This document shows, piece by piece, positions 46,661 to 60,103 of a DNA stretch of 64,000 nt. Each line of letters begins with the position of its first letter. Within the stretch, counting starts at the first letter, position 1. The notes beneath the pieces were generated by a model. That model ran no database searches, was not told the origin of the DNA, and saw only the letters and a program-made list of their open reading frames with translations. The position numbers and the translations under genes are program-made. The DNA is taken from the NCBI RefSeq assembly GCF_009914755.1, contig NC_060947.1. One strand, given 5' to 3'. This stretch comes from the human T2T-CHM13v2.0 reference genome, Homo sapiens.

Positions 46661-48797
46661 GTCATTTGTCAAGGAAGTATCTTGAGTGGTACAAAAAACC
46701 TCTTGAGAAGGAATTTGTCCATACACACAGGAATCAGTGTTGAAGACATTTATAAAATTAGAACATTTTAATTAGAGTAAACTGTCCAACAGATTTCTCA
46801 GCATTTTCTCTGAGGACCTAGGAACTTCCAGAAAGGATCCAGTGTTACTCAGTGTACTTTTAGTTGCTGTACCAATTCACTATGCATTTTATCCTAAGTG
46901 ATAGAAAAACAAGAGATTTAGCATTTCATTAAGTCCTCACAACATGTATAAATTTATACCCTGTGAGCTTATAAAAAATTATGAGTGCTCTATGGACAAG
47001 GCACTTATCTGCCAGTCCAACTCCTGTGTCCAGCTTTAGGAGTTGAGTAACTCCTTGATATTCTTGTTATCAGGCATGTCTTGGTAAAATGAACTTGCCC
47101 AGGTGTATCAAGCATCAGATGATACTACTGCAAAAATCTATAAGAGCATTCTCAATAAGGAATCTTCCCAATTAAGTACCTGCCATGGATTCAAGTTGCC
47201 ATCTTCTCTGGAAGTTTTCAGGGTTTCACAAAGACTCTGCATCTGATGGCTCCAGGTTTGATAATATATTCCAATAATATCTGATGACATTATTTCAAGT
47301 CTTGTTTAGTTAAATCAAACACAAGAAACAACTAAATAAAATGTCCATCTTTCCAATGTTACTTTCTTAGGCAACTGGCAACTTCTTTACCCCTTCGTAC
47401 CTTTCTGCAGCAAGAGGAGATGCAGGGGAGTCCATTCCCTTAAAAATGCAAGATCTAGAGCTGAGCACAGTGGTGTGCACCTGTAGTCTAAGCTACTACG
47501 GAGGCTGAGGCAGGAGAATTGCTTGAGTCCAGGAGTTTGAGGCTGCAGTATGTGATGATTGTACCTGTGAATAGTCACTGCACACCAGCCTGGACTATAC
47601 TGTGAGACCCTCAACTCCCTAAAATAAGGATGCATAAGCTTCCCTGGGGCAACTCAATCTTTACTGTGTTTTTCTTCCATAAAAGTCAAAAATTTCTGAG
47701 TCACTTCATTGTCTACTGAGAAAAAAAGTGTGTGGTTTGAAGCTTATCAGAAATAGCTAATGGACAAATTCTAGGCTGCTAAGAAATTATTGGCTTCCAT
47801 GTATGGAGTGAACATCAACCACCTCTTTTTATTATTTCCTCTTAACCCCAAAAAGTCACTACCAACATTTCCACTTGCTTGAAACTCAAGAGCAAGATTA
47901 TCTATATATAAGAATTCTGTATAAATTTTTGAGACAACTCTGTTGTAACAGAAATCAAGAATAACCACAAGTAGCTTTATGGCTATGTCTTTATTATTTG
48001 TACTATTCTCAAGTCTCTCTGAGGATTACTTTCCAAACCAGAGAGATATATTCTTTATATCATGTCAGTAGGTAAAACACATTAGAGTCCCTTGCTGAGT
48101 TTCTAAGAGCATACTAATTGAATGCTGGTATCCTGAACTGTCTGCCCCTGCAAATTCTAGGTTATATTGAGTCATATCCATAGGAAATTTTAATGCTGAA
48201 AGATCTCCTAGACTCACCTCTTTAGGCTGGTTGAATTTCATGTTTAACTGAAAGGGATCTCAGATTAGCCTGGGTCTTGAACTGGATCAGGAGGGGGCAT
48301 CCACAAGAGAACCACTCCAGAAATGTAAGCTGTTCAAAACTGTCAAGATGAGTTATCTGTTCATAAGGAATTCATTGTATGGAGGAATTGTATTTTTCAA
48401 GAAGGCAGTTTTCATGTTAACTTGACCATGCTAAATGTAGCATATCCAAAATCTGTTTGCATGAAAACCTCAGACAGAAGCACTTTCTGATGTCCTGGAA
48501 TTGATTCTGATATTTAAAAGACTGTAAAAGAGTACAGCCTGACAAGCTTCTTGACATAACTGGTTAAGGAACCTACTTTTTCATGGTGGATATGGGAGAG
48601 GAATGGACAAGCAGAGGGATCAGGAAGACTTAGATAATAATCCATATTGATTTTGCAGGGCCATACTAGGGTAAGACTTTTTTCATTGATCTAGTCTTCC
48701 TCTCAAGATGTCTCAAGGAGGTCCCAGGACCACCACCAACCTCTCTATGTTAGTTGTTTTCAATAAAATATCAAAAAGCATTACTGTTTCTGATGAT
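46661..48797 (+). mobile_element. Decayed Ty3/Gypsy pol, part 1: protease C-terminus, RT, RNase H, integrase zinc-finger and first half of the core
   Basis: Manual translation gives colinear motifs NLLRRN..GISVEDIYKI (46697-46759), FSEDLGT (46806), NYECSMDKAL (46977), ELAQVYQ (47091), PGLIIYSNNI (YxDD position 47267-47278), VTFLG (47358), ASLGQLNLYCVFLP (47638), HK*LYG..KSL*GLL (47966-48031), TERDLRLAWVLNWIRRGHP (48247), DELSVHK (48347), CPGIDSDI*KTVKE (48491), IHIDFAGP (48640-48663), ITVSD (48780-48794). Confidence 0.9.
47459..47627 (+). mobile_element. FAM (fossil Alu monomer) inserted in the Gypsy RT
   Basis: Single monomer with the 7SL-like segment cctgtgaatagtcactgcacaccagcctgg. Confidence 0.85.
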
Positions 48798-49018
48798 GTG
48801 GCCTACACATTGAGATCTTAAGTTTGTTCCACTGTTTAGAAGATAAAAGTAACTTCAGGAAATTTTGTGTTCAAAATCTTCAAACCATTGTGTTTGAATG
48901 GTTGAAAGGTTGAAAAGAAAAAAAAAAATGACCATGATTTCCTACCCTAACTCACCCACAGATAGAAAACAGTTATCTTTAATATTTTGGTGTATTTCTT
49001 TCTTATTTTTTTCATGCC

Positions 49019-49323
49019 TTTTTTTTTTTTTTTTTTTTTTTTTGAGACAGGCTTGCTCCATCACCCAGACTGGAGTGCAGTGACATGAACACAGCTCACT
49101 GCAACCTCGATCTCCTGGGCTCAAGCCATCCTCCTCTCTCAGCCTCGTTAGTAGCTGGGACTACAGGTGCATGCCAACATGCCTGGCTAATTTTTGTATT
49201 TTCAGTAGAGATGGGGTTTTGCCATGTTGGTCAGGCTGGCCTCGAACTCCTGACCTCAAGTGATCCTCCTGCCTTAGCCTCCCAAAGTGTTGGGATTACA
49301 GGCTTGAGCCACTGTGCCTGGCC
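49019..49323 (-). mobile_element. AluJ-like SINE
   Basis: Poly(T), J-type right arm (ctcctgggctcaagccatcctcc), full left arm. Confidence 0.92.
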
Positions 49324-49595
49324 CTGAATGCTCTTAAAAGCATTAAGACGGTTTTTAAAATTAAATGTTTTGGTGCATGGTAAAGCACTTCCAAGCTACT
49401 CAGAAGTCTCTAAAATAAAAGGTAAATTTTTATTTATTCATTTCCACCCCTGGCTTGAGTCCCACAGATAGAGATAACACTTATACTAGTTTCTACTTTT
49501 CAGGTGGTTTCAAATTTAGCGTTCGACAATGTGTTTATGCTTTTCTTTCTTGGTGTTTTAGATAGCATCTATTGACTCCTTTCCATTCAGGAGAT

Positions 49596-57800: not shown

Positions 57801-58627
57801 CAATGGCAACAAAAGCCAAAATTGACAAATGGGATCTAATTAAACTAAAGAGCTTCTGCACAGCAAAAGAAATGACCATCAGAGTGAACAGGCAACCTAC
57901 AAAATGGGAGAAAATTTTCACAACCTACTCATCTGACAAAGGGCTAATATCCAGAATCTACAATGAACTCAAACAAATCTACAAGAAAAAAACAAACAAC
58001 CCCATCAAAAAGTGGGCAAAGGACATGAACAGACACTTCTCAAAAGAAGACATTAATGCAGCCAAAAAACACATGAAAAAATGCTCATCATCACTGGCCA
58101 TCAGAGAAATGCAAATCAAAACCACAATGAGATACCATCTCACACCAGTTAGAATGGCAATCATTAAAAAGTCAGGAAACAACAGGTGCTGGAAAGGATG
58201 TGGAGAAATAGGAACACTTTTACACTGTTGGTGGGACTGTAAACTAGTTCAACCGTTGTGGAAGTCAGTGTGGTGATTCCTCAAGGATCTAGAACTAGAA
58301 ATACCATTTGACCCAGCCATCCCATTACTGGGTATATACCCAAAGGACTATAAATCATGCTGCTATAAAGACACATGCACACGTATGTTTATTGCGGCAT
58401 TATTCACAATAGCAAAGACTTGGAACCAAGTCAAATGTCCAACAATGATAGACTGGATTAAGAAAATGTGGCACATATACACCAGGGAATACTATGCAGC
58501 CATAAAAAATGATGAGTTCATGTCCTTTGTAGGGACATGGATGAAATTGGAAATCATCATTCTCAGTAAACTATCACAAGAACAAAAAACCAAACACCGC
58601 ATATTCTCACTCATAGGTGGGAATTGA
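54805..58627 (+). pseudogene. L1 ORF2p, disrupted; open for the first 476 codons
   Basis: 1-bp deletion near 56205, stop at 56679-56681, 4-bp deletion near 57045, stop at 58274-58276; EN motifs and RT FADD present. Confidence 0.95.
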
Positions 58628-58887
58628 ACAATGAGATCACATGGACACAGGAAGGGGAATATCACACTCTGGGGACTGTGGTGGGGTGGGGGGAGGGGGG
58701 AGGGATAGCATTGGGAGATATACCTAATGCTAGATGGCGAGTTAGTGGGTGCAGCACACCAGCATGGCACATGTATACATATGTAACTAACCTGCACAAT
58801 GTGCACATGTACCCTAAAACTTAAAGTATAATTAAAAAAAAAGAAAAAAAAGAAAAAAAATTAAAAAATAAAAAAAAGAAATTTGTG

Positions 58888-59663
58888 ATCAGGAGCATTC
58901 ACCAAACTGTCACCATCACATCTCAACACCCTCAGGAAAATAATTATGATCAGGGAATCCTGCAGACAACTAAGAATTCACTGAAGCAGATTATTCAAGG
59001 AGACTATTCAATACTTGCTAGGTCTTTGATTGGTTCTTTTATCATTTTATGCTCAATGTAATTAATTGAGTTTGTTGATTTACTAATGATATGACATCCC
59101 AGCCTTGCCCTGACTGTATCCTCTTAGACTTAAATGAAAACTTAAACATTCAAATTCCAGATGCTACTCTGTTTGAACATAGAACAACATATAACAGATG
59201 GTATTATTTAATAAATAATTGCTGGATGATGAATGAAAAAAATGACTGTGCCTATATAGCACTCATTTGTACCATAAGACTTTGTCTCTGCTAGTTAGTT
59301 AGGAGATGAACCAAGGTGGGTTCCTGCTCCCTAAGTAATGGAGCCTGGATCTTATCAGTCTAGAGGCAAATGGGTGAGGCGTTGTATTACCATAATGATC
59401 AATAATAAAGAACTTCTTATGGAGCTTTGTCAACAGCCAAACCATTAGACTTTTCTCTGCCAGAGCCATCTGTTGATGACTTTTTAGCTACACATCTGGA
59501 GGACACATCACAACAACAAAATGAAGAAAGCAGTAAGTCTTCTCTAGTTCCTGAGGTGACCAAAATGGAGTCACCTGGAATTTGTACACTTGCTAGAATA
59601 ATACAGAAGTTGATATCCATAATGGAGCTCCCTTGTCAGTTTAAAGACCACATTTTAAATAAT
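58888..59663 (+). mobile_element. Gypsy integrase, part 3: core C-terminal half, C-terminal domain and acidic tail
   Basis: HPQENNYDQGILQTTKNSLKQIIQGDYSILARSL (58927-59028), DLLM, DFVSAS*LGDEPRWVPAP*VMEPGSYQ (59278-59358), HNDQ (59391), low-complexity tail ending LPCQFKDHIL. Confidence 0.85.
59150..59245 (+). mobile_element. Probable L2 3'-end fragment
   Basis: catagaacaacatataacagatggtattatttaataaataattgctggatgatgaatgaa resembles the L2 terminus. Confidence 0.55.
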
Positions 59664-60103
59664 GGAGGGGGCAGGTTATGTATGCCAGGAAGCTCTATGC
59701 CAGGCTGTGTTTTTGTTCCTTGGACTTATTTATGGTTGCAGGCTGTAGTGATTCATTGGTGTGGCAGTAGAATTAGTGTACAACCTTGTTACAGACCAGT
59801 CAGGATTTTAGTCAGGCTTTCACTGGTGTAATGCAACCTGACACAATAGAAACAATTGCCTGGAGGAAACCCTCTCCTTCAGCCCTCTGAGCCTATACAG
59901 CAAATGGCAATATTCTAAAGGAATTCTGCTGTCTGTTGGATAATATTGCCTTTGCACAAAACACATGTTGGCCACCTGTGTCCTGTATTTATCCCCTGTT
60001 GCTACTTAACCATTCATACTAAGAATGTTTTGTTAAAGTCTTCCCCTCTTCAAACTTGCCCCACTTTAGTTACTTGGCTAACGTTTTGCCTTTTTTTCTA
60101 TCA
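59664..60103 (+). mobile_element. Polypurine tract and probable 3' LTR of the Gypsy element
   Basis: ggagggggcagg (59664-59675) directly after the integrase tail, then (g)gttatgtatg; poly(A)-signal-like gttaaa near 60032; candidate CA end at 60103; right boundary uncertain. Confidence 0.55.

What the first reader, a model, noticed from the sequence alone, without database searches (positions are those of the whole stretch)
46661..60103. Hidden, near-complete fossil Ty3/Gypsy pol (PR-RT-RH-IN) scattered over 13.4 kb of primate DNA
Seen: translating the non-L1 gaps on the + strand gives more than 15 motifs in strict order, including FSEDLGT, NYECSMDKAL, ELAQVYQ..DDTTAK, GSFQ..PGLIIYSNNI, VTFLG, SLGQLNLY..SESLHCLLRKK, HK*LYG, NAGILNCLPL, TERDLRLAWVLNWIRRGHP, DELSVHK, MLNVAYP..CMK..F*CPGIDSDI, IHIDFAGPY*GKTFFI, ITVSD, GTPFSAEYKKF, HPQ..QTTKNSLKQIIQGD and PRWVPA. 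Established: the order PR-RT-RNaseH-IN defines Ty3/Gypsy and retroviral pol, and Gypsy elements are extinct in eutherians apart from domesticated genes (RTL/SIRH, PNMA, GIN1, NYNRIN) and old fragments. Inference: the motifs match my recollection of K02A2.6-like (Mag-type) pol of non-mammalian vertebrates (DYKCTINKAL, DLAQAYQQL, PYFDD, RVLNWVxRGWP, WWPGID, PWSRLHIDFAGPFQG) rather than sushi-ichi/PEG10 or ERVs. About 2.7 kb of pol is recoverable and the ORF track does not show it. It may already be covered by a Dfam MamGyp/MamGypsy2 internal model; I cannot check that.
Basis: partly seen in the sequence, partly recalled or inferred. Interest (0 to 1): 0.92.

Follow-up and report, generated by a model that had tools for sequence, protein, structure and literature searches.

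The report
Decayed Gypsy-type retrotransposon pol fossil
This stretch of human chromosome X holds the very old, dead remains of a retrovirus-like jumping gene, later split by Alu and L1 insertions; such fossils are a known kind and nothing suggests it still does anything.

Summary
The window's own translations match no Pfam or PDB entry. Support comes from decayed paralogs elsewhere in the same genome.

- Window 48332-48604 is homologous to copies that Pfam reads as Integrase_H2C2, in 4 of 8 short pieces, best E 6.8e-5.
- Window 47632-47736 links through chr3 and chr7 copies to RT_RNaseH_2 (E 0.0023) and to a solved polyprotein (E 0.018).
- The 'YSNNI' stretch aligns to the chr7 copy's 'FDDI' box (p about 0.004).
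- A full-length L1 at 52821-58875 has a 12-bp target-site duplication, so the join 52820|58888 is exact.
- Window 58909-59016 matches the integrase core of a chr6 copy (E 0.021).

So an LTR-retroelement pol fossil with RT, RNase H and integrase in that order is supported. Not verified:

- protease and the N-terminal RT;
- the first two catalytic stretches and C-terminus of integrase;
- the join 48797|52781;
- the K02A2.6/Mag assignment;
- Dfam coverage.

Ancient Gypsy fossils in human DNA are already catalogued (PMC5753468). Interest is low.

The parts
46661..47457 (+). Putative end of protease and RT region of the fossil. Identity as RT is only weakly supported.
   Evidence: 46728-46830 matches chr1 locus L015 (76% DNA identity, genome-wide E 1.3e-9). 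L015 against 46776-46898: p about 0.003. P0001 and P0002, junk ORFs from related DNA, match at 56-57% over 37-50 aa. 47186-47281 (frame 2, '...PGLIIYSNNI') aligns to the 'PGMLASFDDI' RT box of chr7 copy L076, p about 0.004. There is no Pfam, PDB or own-genome protein hit.
47458..47628 (.). Alu-derived insert of monomer length that interrupts the fossil.
   Evidence: 52 further genome-wide matches at 76-88% identity, all confined to query positions 797-980 (window about 47457-47640). No target-site duplication longer than 6 bases was found.
47629..48331 (+). RT thumb / RNase H region of the fossil.
   Evidence: 47632-47736 matches chr3 copy L012 (phmmer E 6.9e-8 against 1068 six-frame chunks of the window; genome-wide E 0.0012; DNA 77%, E 3.5e-9). 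L012 matches chr7 copy L076 (E 0.0039; 0.0063). L076 hits Pfam RT_RNaseH_2 at E 0.0023 and PDB 8r0s_A at E 0.018. L076 against window 47629-47760: p about 0.0008. 48117-48265 has weak colinear tblastx hits to chr3 copy L059. The window's own piece has no Pfam or PDB hit.
48332..48604 (+). Integrase N-terminal zinc-finger (HHCC-type) remnant. The metal ligands are mostly mutated.
   Evidence: The chr12 ORF (L049, 125 aa) hits Pfam Integrase_H2C2 at E 6.8e-5 and zf-H2C2 at 0.022. It finds this stretch genome-wide at E 0.002, 34% identity over 95 aa, and locally at E 1.9e-7. Among 8 zinc-finger pieces from other copies used as queries, 7 have their best match among the 1068 chunks here in frame +2. 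The window's own piece gives no Pfam hit.
48640..48797 (+). Putative integrase core, first and second catalytic stretches ('IHIDFAGPY', 'ITVSD'). Unverified.
   Evidence: Position directly downstream of the verified zinc finger. DNA match 48639-48677 to L013, colinear with the zinc-finger match (E 5e-4). phmmer E 4. Shuffle tests against L073 and L072 are not significant. No Pfam rve hit.
48798..52780 (.). Intervening block. Contains an Alu (about 48971-49374) and a - strand L1 fragment (about 50645-52462). About 1.76 kb is unassigned.
   Evidence: tblastx of the window against loci that hold Alu and L1, plus the hub's mask list. 49375-50644 matches nothing I hold. No duplication flanks 48797|52781, so this join is not confirmed.
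52781..52820 (+). 40-bp piece ('GTPFSAEYKKFV') that was contiguous with 58888 onward before the L1 landed.
   Evidence: The 12-bp duplication at 52809-52820 and 58876-58887 brackets the L1. The frame continues across the restored junction. Homology of the piece itself to paralogs is not significant.
52821..58887 (+). Full-length but broken L1 insertion with poly(A) and the second copy of the duplication. It holds the RefSeq 'enhancer' 53094-53669 in its 5'UTR.
   Evidence: ends and duplication. Transposase_22 E 1e-60, Tnp_22_dsRBD, Tnp_22_trimer, Exo_endo_phos, RVT_1 E 2.4e-43. There is a stop in the ORF1 frame, and the ORF2 domains lie in two frames.
58888..59149 (+). Integrase core, third catalytic region ('HPQ...QTTKNSLKQ').
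   Evidence: The L013 core piece matches 58909-59016 at E 0.021. DNA 58925-59000 matches L013 1206-1131 at 70% over 76 bases, E 0.001, colinear with the zinc-finger and 48639-48677 matches within about 420 bases of L013. No Pfam hit.
59246..59663 (+). Putative integrase C-terminus ('PRWVPA', 'EPGSYQ'). Unverified.
   Evidence: Only its position and resemblance by eye. No Pfam hit and no paralog match.

Best explanation
The + strand from about 46.7 kb to about 59.5 kb is the neutrally decayed internal (pol) region of one very old LTR retrotransposon. It is most likely of the Ty3/Gypsy (Metaviridae) kind. The element inserted long before the primate radiation and lost all coding capacity. It was then pulled apart by an Alu-derived insert (47458-47628), a roughly 4-kb mixed block (48798-52780) and a full-length L1 (52821-58875).

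Shown: RT-thumb/RNase H-type, integrase zinc-finger and integrase-core segments lie in that order on one strand; the join across the L1 is exact.

Inferred: the segments upstream (protease, N-terminal RT) and downstream (integrase C-terminus) belong to the same pol; the lineage is Gypsy; the age exceeds about 100 million years; it has no present function.
For: - Motifs are present and ordered.
- Integrase zinc finger. Paralog pieces hit Pfam Integrase_H2C2 in 4 of 8 short pieces tested (L049 6.8e-5, L013 0.0046, L073 0.042, L057 0.12). No other junk piece in my Pfam calls hit that family. The window stretch 48332-48604 is found by the L049 ORF at genome-wide E 0.002 and local E 1.9e-7.
- RT thumb / RNase H. 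Window 47632-47736 links to L012 (6.9e-8), L012 to L076 (0.0039), and L076 to RT_RNaseH_2 (0.0023) and PDB 8r0s_A (0.018).
- YxDD region: p about 0.004. Weak colinear tblastx hits run from window 47189 to 47905 against L076 1046 to 426.
- Integrase core: E 0.021 to L013. In L013 the three matched pieces lie within about 420 bases, whereas in the window they are 10 kb apart.
- L1 target-site duplication.
- The Pfam control on the - strand is clean. The Pfam positive control on the L1 works.
- Age. Paralogs align only in stretches under 110 bases at 70-89% identity.
- Context. Gypsy fossils are known in human DNA (PMC5753468, passages). Metaviridae ceased to transpose in an ancient ancestor of mammals (PMC11011659, passages).
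Against: - No translation of the window itself reaches any Pfam retroelement family at E up to 10. None reaches a relevant PDB chain.
- The 1.84-billion-protein search with the RT piece found only 2 junk ORFs and no true RT.
- No rve, RVT_1 or protease hit was found in any copy.
- L076 pieces do not hit the window directly by phmmer, so the RNase H link is transitive.
- RH-type and zinc-finger-type copies were not found adjacent at any other locus. In 2 of 2 RH copies examined, no zinc finger lies downstream.
- No LTR pair was found.
- The join 48797|52781 is unconfirmed, and about 1.76 kb in that gap is unexplained.
- Integrase_H2C2 and RT_RNaseH_2 also occur in human ERVs, so they do not separate Gypsy from retrovirus.
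Confidence: 0.8

Rival explanations
1. The fossil is an ancient endogenous retrovirus rather than a Gypsy retrotransposon. It would have the same RT-RH-IN order and the same zinc-finger type, with env and LTRs decayed beyond recognition.
For: Integrase_H2C2 and RT_RNaseH_2 are carried by hundreds of human ERV copies. Zinc-finger pieces of the family show weak similarity to ERV integrase zinc fingers (E 0.01-0.07 among 38 ORFs). No Gypsy-specific feature, such as a chromodomain or a tree placement, was tested.
Against: 0 of 38 ERV, RTL1-like and NYNRIN-like ORFs match the claimed region by phmmer. The L049 ORF finds about 19 weak copies genome-wide and none of the abundant ERV families. Only one polyprotein chain was matched by the L076 piece in the PDB, an 'Enzymatic polyprotein', and no chain named as a retroviral RT was listed. 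That the name denotes a caulimovirus is recalled.
Confidence: 0.12
2. Only the integrase part (48.3-48.8 kb plus 58.9-59.1 kb) and the short RT-thumb piece are retroelement remains. The stretch 46661-47457, read as PR/RT, is another old repeat, for example a CR1/L2-type LINE fragment, and its motifs were picked by eye.
For: No domain hit of any kind for 46661-47457. Its one paralog, L015, carries a LINE-like 'FINDL...DDSKL' motif about 400 bases downstream (translation; that the motif is CR1/L2-like is recalled). 'SDDTT' can also be read as a LINE 'ADDT' box.
Against: The window's 'YSNNI' stretch aligns to the 'FDDI' box of L076 (p about 0.004). In L076 that box sits about 75 residues upstream of the RT thumb, and in the window about 64 residues once the Alu is removed. 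That places an LTR-type YxDD box at 47267-47281. L2 fragments are common, so one lying next to L015 may be coincidence.
Confidence: 0.06
3. The motif series is chance similarity in AT-rich junk, and there is no fossil gene.
For: No direct Pfam or PDB hit of the window. Random junk pieces in my Pfam calls gave E 0.014-0.25 to unrelated families.
Against: Genome-wide significant paralogs exist for four separate stretches. The same Pfam family was hit by 4 independent copies. The predicted family RT_RNaseH_2 was hit at the predicted place. 7 of 8 zinc-finger queries have their best match at one site and in one frame.
Confidence: 0.02

Closest known systems
Ancient mammalian Gypsy internal families of Repbase/Dfam (MamGyp-int with MamGypLTR1-3; X1_LR to X4_LR; MamGypsy2)
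   Same: They are multi-copy, very decayed LTR-retrotransposon internal sequences in human DNA, classed as Gypsy (PMC5753468 Table 4, passages). The family here has at least 10 weak zinc-finger copies and at least 4 RH-type copies.
   Different: MamGyp-int gag is said to be the source of PNMA2 (bioRxiv 10.1101/2023.02.09.527862, passages). No PNMA-like gag was found upstream in the window.
Domesticated Gypsy-derived genes with pol remnants (the RTL1-like ORF at chr14:95.1 Mb; name recalled)
   Same: Metaviridae-type RT_RNaseH_2 domain (80 bits).
   Different: That gene keeps a 1377-aa open frame, whereas the window has stops and frameshifts throughout. There is no detectable similarity between its ORF and the window or the paralog pieces.
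Human endogenous retroviruses (ERV pol loci L017-L027, L030-L047)
   Same: Same domain order and the same Pfam families for the zinc finger and the RT/RNase H linker.
   Different: ERV copies score 44-68 bits to those families and are abundant. The copies here score 13-23 bits and number about 10 to 20. 0 of 38 ORFs match the region.
Polyprotein chain 8r0s_A, 'Enzymatic polyprotein' (that it is a caulimovirus pol is recalled)
   Same: The RT thumb and the start of RNase H of chr7 copy L076 align to residues 382-457 at E 0.018.
   Different: It is the polyprotein of a virus (caulimovirus by recall). The match is to a paralog, not to the window itself (searches found nothing).

Membership tests
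Ty3/Gypsy-type (or retroviral) pol | RT, then RNase H, then integrase on one strand (not integrase before RT as in Copia) | tested here: met
   The RT_RNaseH_2-linked segment 47632-47736 lies upstream of the Integrase_H2C2-linked segment 48332-48604, and the core segment 58909-59016 follows it. All are on the + strand. The domain names come from paralogs, not from the window itself.
Ty3/Gypsy-type (or retroviral) pol | RT palm with a YxDD box (Pfam RVT_1) | tested here: inconclusive
   No RVT_1 hit in the window or any copy. 'YSNNI' aligns to 'FDDI' of L076 at p about 0.004.
Ty3/Gypsy-type (or retroviral) pol | Aspartic protease with D(T/S)G | tested here: inconclusive
   No protease family hit in 44001-46852 or 46000-49004. 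There is only an 'HTG' seen by eye in frame 2 near 46.7 kb.
Ty3/Gypsy-type (or retroviral) pol | Integrase HHCC zinc finger | tested here: met
   4 of 8 copy pieces hit Integrase_H2C2. Homology to the window is shown. In the window the ligand positions are mutated (translation).
Ty3/Gypsy-type (or retroviral) pol | DD35E catalytic core (Pfam rve) | tested here: inconclusive
   No rve hit in the window or in L013, L072 or L073. The E-region is homologous to L013 (E 0.021). The D1/D2 pieces are not significant. A spacing of 35 residues can be counted by eye, but only if the unconfirmed join 48797|52781 is right.
LTR retrotransposon | Flanking long terminal repeats | tested here: not met
   No direct repeat was found between 38000-46700 and 59400-64000 beyond chance (best 33 bases, E 0.003). 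This is expected at this age and does not exclude the class.
Metaviridae as opposed to Retroviridae | Placement of RT and integrase in a tree with curated references | not testable with these tools
   No Gypsy reference protein could be fetched. Indirect hints come (polyprotein hit; no ERV similarity).
K02A2.6-like / Mag lineage | Closest similarity to pol proteins of that lineage | not testable with these tools
Dfam/Repbase MamGyp-int, MamGypsy2-I, X1-X4_LR | Nucleotide or profile match to the family model | not testable with these tools
   No Dfam or Repbase library is on hand. The hub's mask list names no masked stretch of 370 bases or more within 46661-48797.
Human ERV families | Detectable similarity to ERV pol ORFs of the same genome | tested here: not met
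   0 of 38 ORFs hit the region. Only weak zinc-finger-level similarity of the paralogs was seen.

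The most novel reading that the evidence does not exclude
The family has no model in Dfam or Repbase and represents a second Metaviridae lineage, outside the sushi/PEG10 and PNMA/MamGyp sources, that was still transposing in the ancestor of mammals. 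This X-linked copy would be the most complete pol left. It is the only locus I saw where RH-type and integrase-type pieces are still adjacent.
Probability: 0.18. Interest if true: 0.4.

Novelty: new member of a known kind. Interest (0 to 1): 0.2.

Why it matters
The importance is modest.

- It shows that a pol gene about as old as the mammals can still be traced through nested Alu and L1 insertions.
- It gives exact break points, including a 12-bp target-site duplication.
- It could help date when Gypsy elements died out in mammals, and it could improve repeat annotation of a stretch that NCBI's file leaves largely unmasked.
- It has no open frame and no sign of co-option. The RefSeq 'enhancer' in the span belongs to the inserted L1, not to the fossil.

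Tried and rejected
- Pfam on the window. 9 long frames, 12 short pieces and the zinc-finger piece gave no retroelement family. Upstream 44001-46852 gave no gag, PNMA or protease. The - strand control gave nothing.
- PDB by sequence. Window pieces and the L049, L073 and L012 pieces gave nothing relevant. The L076 RT piece gave nothing.
- Large protein searches. The 5.8-billion word search was run 3 times and none scored. The 1.84-billion HMMER search with the RT piece found only P0001 and P0002, which are junk ORFs over related DNA.
- Viral contigs. One degenerate pattern and one protein query found nothing.
- RTL1-like, NYNRIN-like and ERV ORFs against the window gave nothing in the region. 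The tblastn output was cut at 6000 characters. The phmmer run covered 38 ORFs.
- Own-genome protein search with the window's RT piece returned only itself and one match at E 8.3.
- Long-context Pfam on the paralogs L012, L013, L015 and L073 gave nothing, because short domains are lost in long junk.
- LTR search found nothing. Rfam found nothing.
- No target-site duplication was found for 48797|52781.
- The 40-bp piece and the gap flanks against L013 were not significant. 49375-50644 matched nothing I hold.
- Adjacency of RH and zinc-finger pieces at other loci was not found in 2 of 2 loci looked at.
- The ESM Atlas could not be used.
- Structure prediction was not tried. Single decayed sequences were judged unlikely to fold with confidence.

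Full report
**Observation**

I searched for the 19 reader motifs of five or more residues. All are present on the + strand at the stated places and in the stated order. None occurs on the - strand. The three shorter motifs are visible in the translations. The string-level observation is therefore correct. The open questions were whether it exceeds chance and what it is.

**Direct tests on the window failed**

- Pfam gave no retroelement family for three long + frames over 46000-49004, 52501-53102 and 58801-60302.
- It gave none for 12 frame-matched short pieces or for the zinc-finger piece alone.
- The only hits were unrelated families at E 0.04-0.17.
- PDB sequence searches with the integrase, RT and RT-thumb pieces found nothing relevant.
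- An exhaustive HMMER search of 1.84 billion representative proteins with the RT piece (46776-47400, frame 3) returned 2 proteins. Both are short junk ORFs that read through related DNA (56-57% identity). No true reverse transcriptase was returned.
- Three word-indexed searches of 5.8 billion proteins scored nothing.
- ORFs that I take, by recall, to be RTL1 and NYNRIN, together with 35 ERV ORFs from the same genome, gave no match in the region. That is 0 of 38 ORFs by phmmer against 1068 six-frame chunks of the window. The tblastn run also found none, but its output was cut at 6000 characters.
- As a positive control, Pfam reads the inserted L1 very clearly. As a negative control, the - strand of the claimed segments is clean.

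**Structure of the locus**

- 47457-47628 is an Alu-derived insert. All 52 non-self matches of the 2.1-kb query fall in that part, at 76-88% identity.
- 52821-58875 is a full-length + strand L1. It begins with an L1 5'UTR-like start, ends in poly(A), and is bracketed by the 12-bp duplication AAGAAATTTGTG at 52809-52820 and 58876-58887.
- Pfam finds the three L1 ORF1 domains, Exo_endo_phos and RVT_1 inside it.
- The other large join, 48797|52781, has no duplication of 7 or more bases.
- The gap at that join holds an Alu, a - strand L1 piece and about 1.76 kb that I could not assign.

**Paralogs give the identification: the integrase zinc finger**

DNA searches of the window's own genome found short old paralogs:
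- chr1 (L015) for 46728-46830, E 1.3e-9;
- chr3 (L012) for 47637-47724, E 3.5e-9;
- chr6 (L013) for 48483-48528, E 9.7e-7.

In L013 three matches are colinear within about 420 bases: 48483-48528, 48639-48677 and 58925-59000. In the window they span 10 kb. This independently supports the view that the piece beyond the L1 belongs to the same element.

A chr12 copy (L049) keeps a 125-aa open frame. Pfam reads it as Integrase_H2C2 (E 6.8e-5, 23.4 bits against a cut-off of 25.5) and zf-H2C2 (E 0.022). Of 8 short zinc-finger pieces tested:
- 4 hit Integrase_H2C2 as their only or best family (L049, L013 at 0.0046, L073 at 0.042, L057 at 0.12);
- 4 hit nothing (L055, L058, L059 and the window).

No other junk piece in any of my Pfam calls hit that family. 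The L049 ORF finds window 48332-48604 at genome-wide E 0.002, with 34% identity over 95 residues, and locally at E 1.9e-7. Of 8 zinc-finger pieces from other copies used as queries, 7 have their best match among the 1068 chunks at this site in frame +2.

**Paralogs give the identification: RT and RNase H**

- The L012 piece matches window 47632-47736 (E 6.9e-8 locally; 0.0012 genome-wide).
- It also matches a chr7 copy, L076 (E 0.0039; 0.0063 in the reverse search).
- L076 keeps about 130 residues in one frame.
- Pfam reads L076 as RT_RNaseH_2 (E 0.0023, 18.4 bits).
- Its one relevant PDB match is chain 8r0s_A, 'Enzymatic polyprotein', residues 382-457 (E 0.018). I recall that name as the caulimovirus pol, but no call confirms it.
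- Just upstream, L076 reads '...LPGMLASFDDILI...', an LTR-type YxDD box.
- In a shuffle test of pairs chosen beforehand, that piece aligns to the window's '...APGLIIYSNNI' at p about 0.004. The RH piece aligns to 47629-47760 at p about 0.0008. L015 aligns to 46776-46898 at p about 0.003.
- Weak colinear tblastx hits run from window 47189 to 47905 against L076 1046 to 426.
- Against this, L076 pieces do not reach the window by phmmer, so the domain name is transferred in two steps.

**What stays unverified**

- No copy gave an rve, RVT_1 or protease hit.
- The window's 'IHIDFAGPY', 'ITVSD' and 'GTPFSAEYKKF' pieces are not significantly similar to the cores of L013, L072 or L073 (E 4; p 0.16-0.83).
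- The RT N-terminal motifs, the protease and the integrase C-terminus rest only on resemblance to remembered sequences.
- L015 carries a motif about 400 bases downstream that I recall as CR1/L2-like (translation). I therefore keep a small rival reading in which 46661-47100 is not part of the pol.
- RH-type copies (chr7, chr15, chr10, chr3) and zinc-finger-type copies (chr12, chr10, chr1, chr4, chr8, chr3, chr7, chr6) were not found adjacent anywhere else. In 2 of 2 RH loci examined, no zinc finger lies in the 1.6 kb downstream.
- No LTR pair, no gag and no PNMA-like sequence upstream were found.

**Gypsy or retrovirus**

The two Pfam families also occur in human ERVs, so they do not decide the question. 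Three things favour Gypsy:
- the absence of any similarity to 38 ERV, RTL1-like and NYNRIN-like ORFs;
- the small and very old copy set;
- the PDB match to a polyprotein chain, with no chain named as a retroviral RT listed.

No Gypsy reference protein could be obtained. The Mag/K02A2.6 assignment is therefore untested.

**Age and function**

Copies align only over stretches shorter than 110 bases, at 70-89% identity. That is the state of repeats as old as the mammals or older. This is an inference and I made no dating. There is no open frame, no conserved structure (Rfam found none) and no sign of co-option. The RefSeq enhancer at 53094-53669 lies in the L1 5'UTR.

**What is known**

- The Repbase review PMC5753468 (passages read) lists Gypsy as one of five LTR classes with traces in human DNA. 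It names MamGyp-int, its LTRs, and the internal portions X1_LR to X4_LR.
- A preprint (10.1101/2023.02.09.527862, passages) derives PNMA2 from the gag of MamGyp-int.
- PMC11011659 (passages) states that Metaviridae ceased to transpose in an ancient ancestor of mammals.
- I found no paper on this locus. The only searches made were (one search found nothing), and none was aimed at the locus.
- Whether Dfam already covers this copy cannot be checked here. The hub's mask list names no masked stretch of 370 bases or more inside 46661-48797, so the copy may be largely unannotated even if its family is known.

**Verdict**

This is a real but ordinary fossil of a Gypsy-type pol. It is well supported from the YxDD region of RT through the RNase H linker and the integrase zinc finger to the third catalytic region of integrase. 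The join across the L1 is exact. 'Near-complete PR-RT-RH-IN' and the lineage call remain plausible but unproven.

Noticed in passing
window 52821-58887: Full-length + strand L1 with poly(A) and a 12-bp target-site duplication. The ORF1 frame carries a stop, and the ORF2 domains lie in two frames, so the element is dead. The RefSeq 'enhancer' 53094-53669 sits in its 5'UTR.
   Followed up: yes
L049 1405-1779 (-), own genome chr12:26372658-26373032: A 125-aa stop-free frame survives through the integrase zinc finger of an otherwise decayed copy. It is the best-preserved piece of the family that I saw. I did not test whether it is more than chance survival.
   Followed up: partly
own genome chrX:107841639-107842056 (-), about 270 kb beyond the window: A broken PNMA-like gag fossil (Pfam PNMA, E 1.2e-7 and 1.9e-4, with several stops), found while looking for gag. 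It is not linked to the window's fossil by any result.
   Followed up: no
L015 about 1950-2100 (+), own genome chr1:215.62 Mb: The translation shows '...LFHLFINDL...VDDSKLIGTAKD...'. I recall this as the RT motif pair of CR1/L2-type LINEs. It lies about 400 bases downstream of the stretch paralogous to window 46728-46881. Pfam gave no hit.
   Followed up: partly
P0001, P0002 (protein library): Two 'proteins' in the public representative set are spurious ORFs read across DNA related to window 46480-46900. They show that this fossil, or a copy of it, has been called as a gene in some genome annotation.
   Followed up: partly
window 42281-42507 and 42639-42866; 44114-44333 and 39646-39863: Old dispersed or tandem-like repeats (about 69% identity) in the AT-rich stretch upstream of the fossil. 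Their nature is unknown.
   Followed up: no
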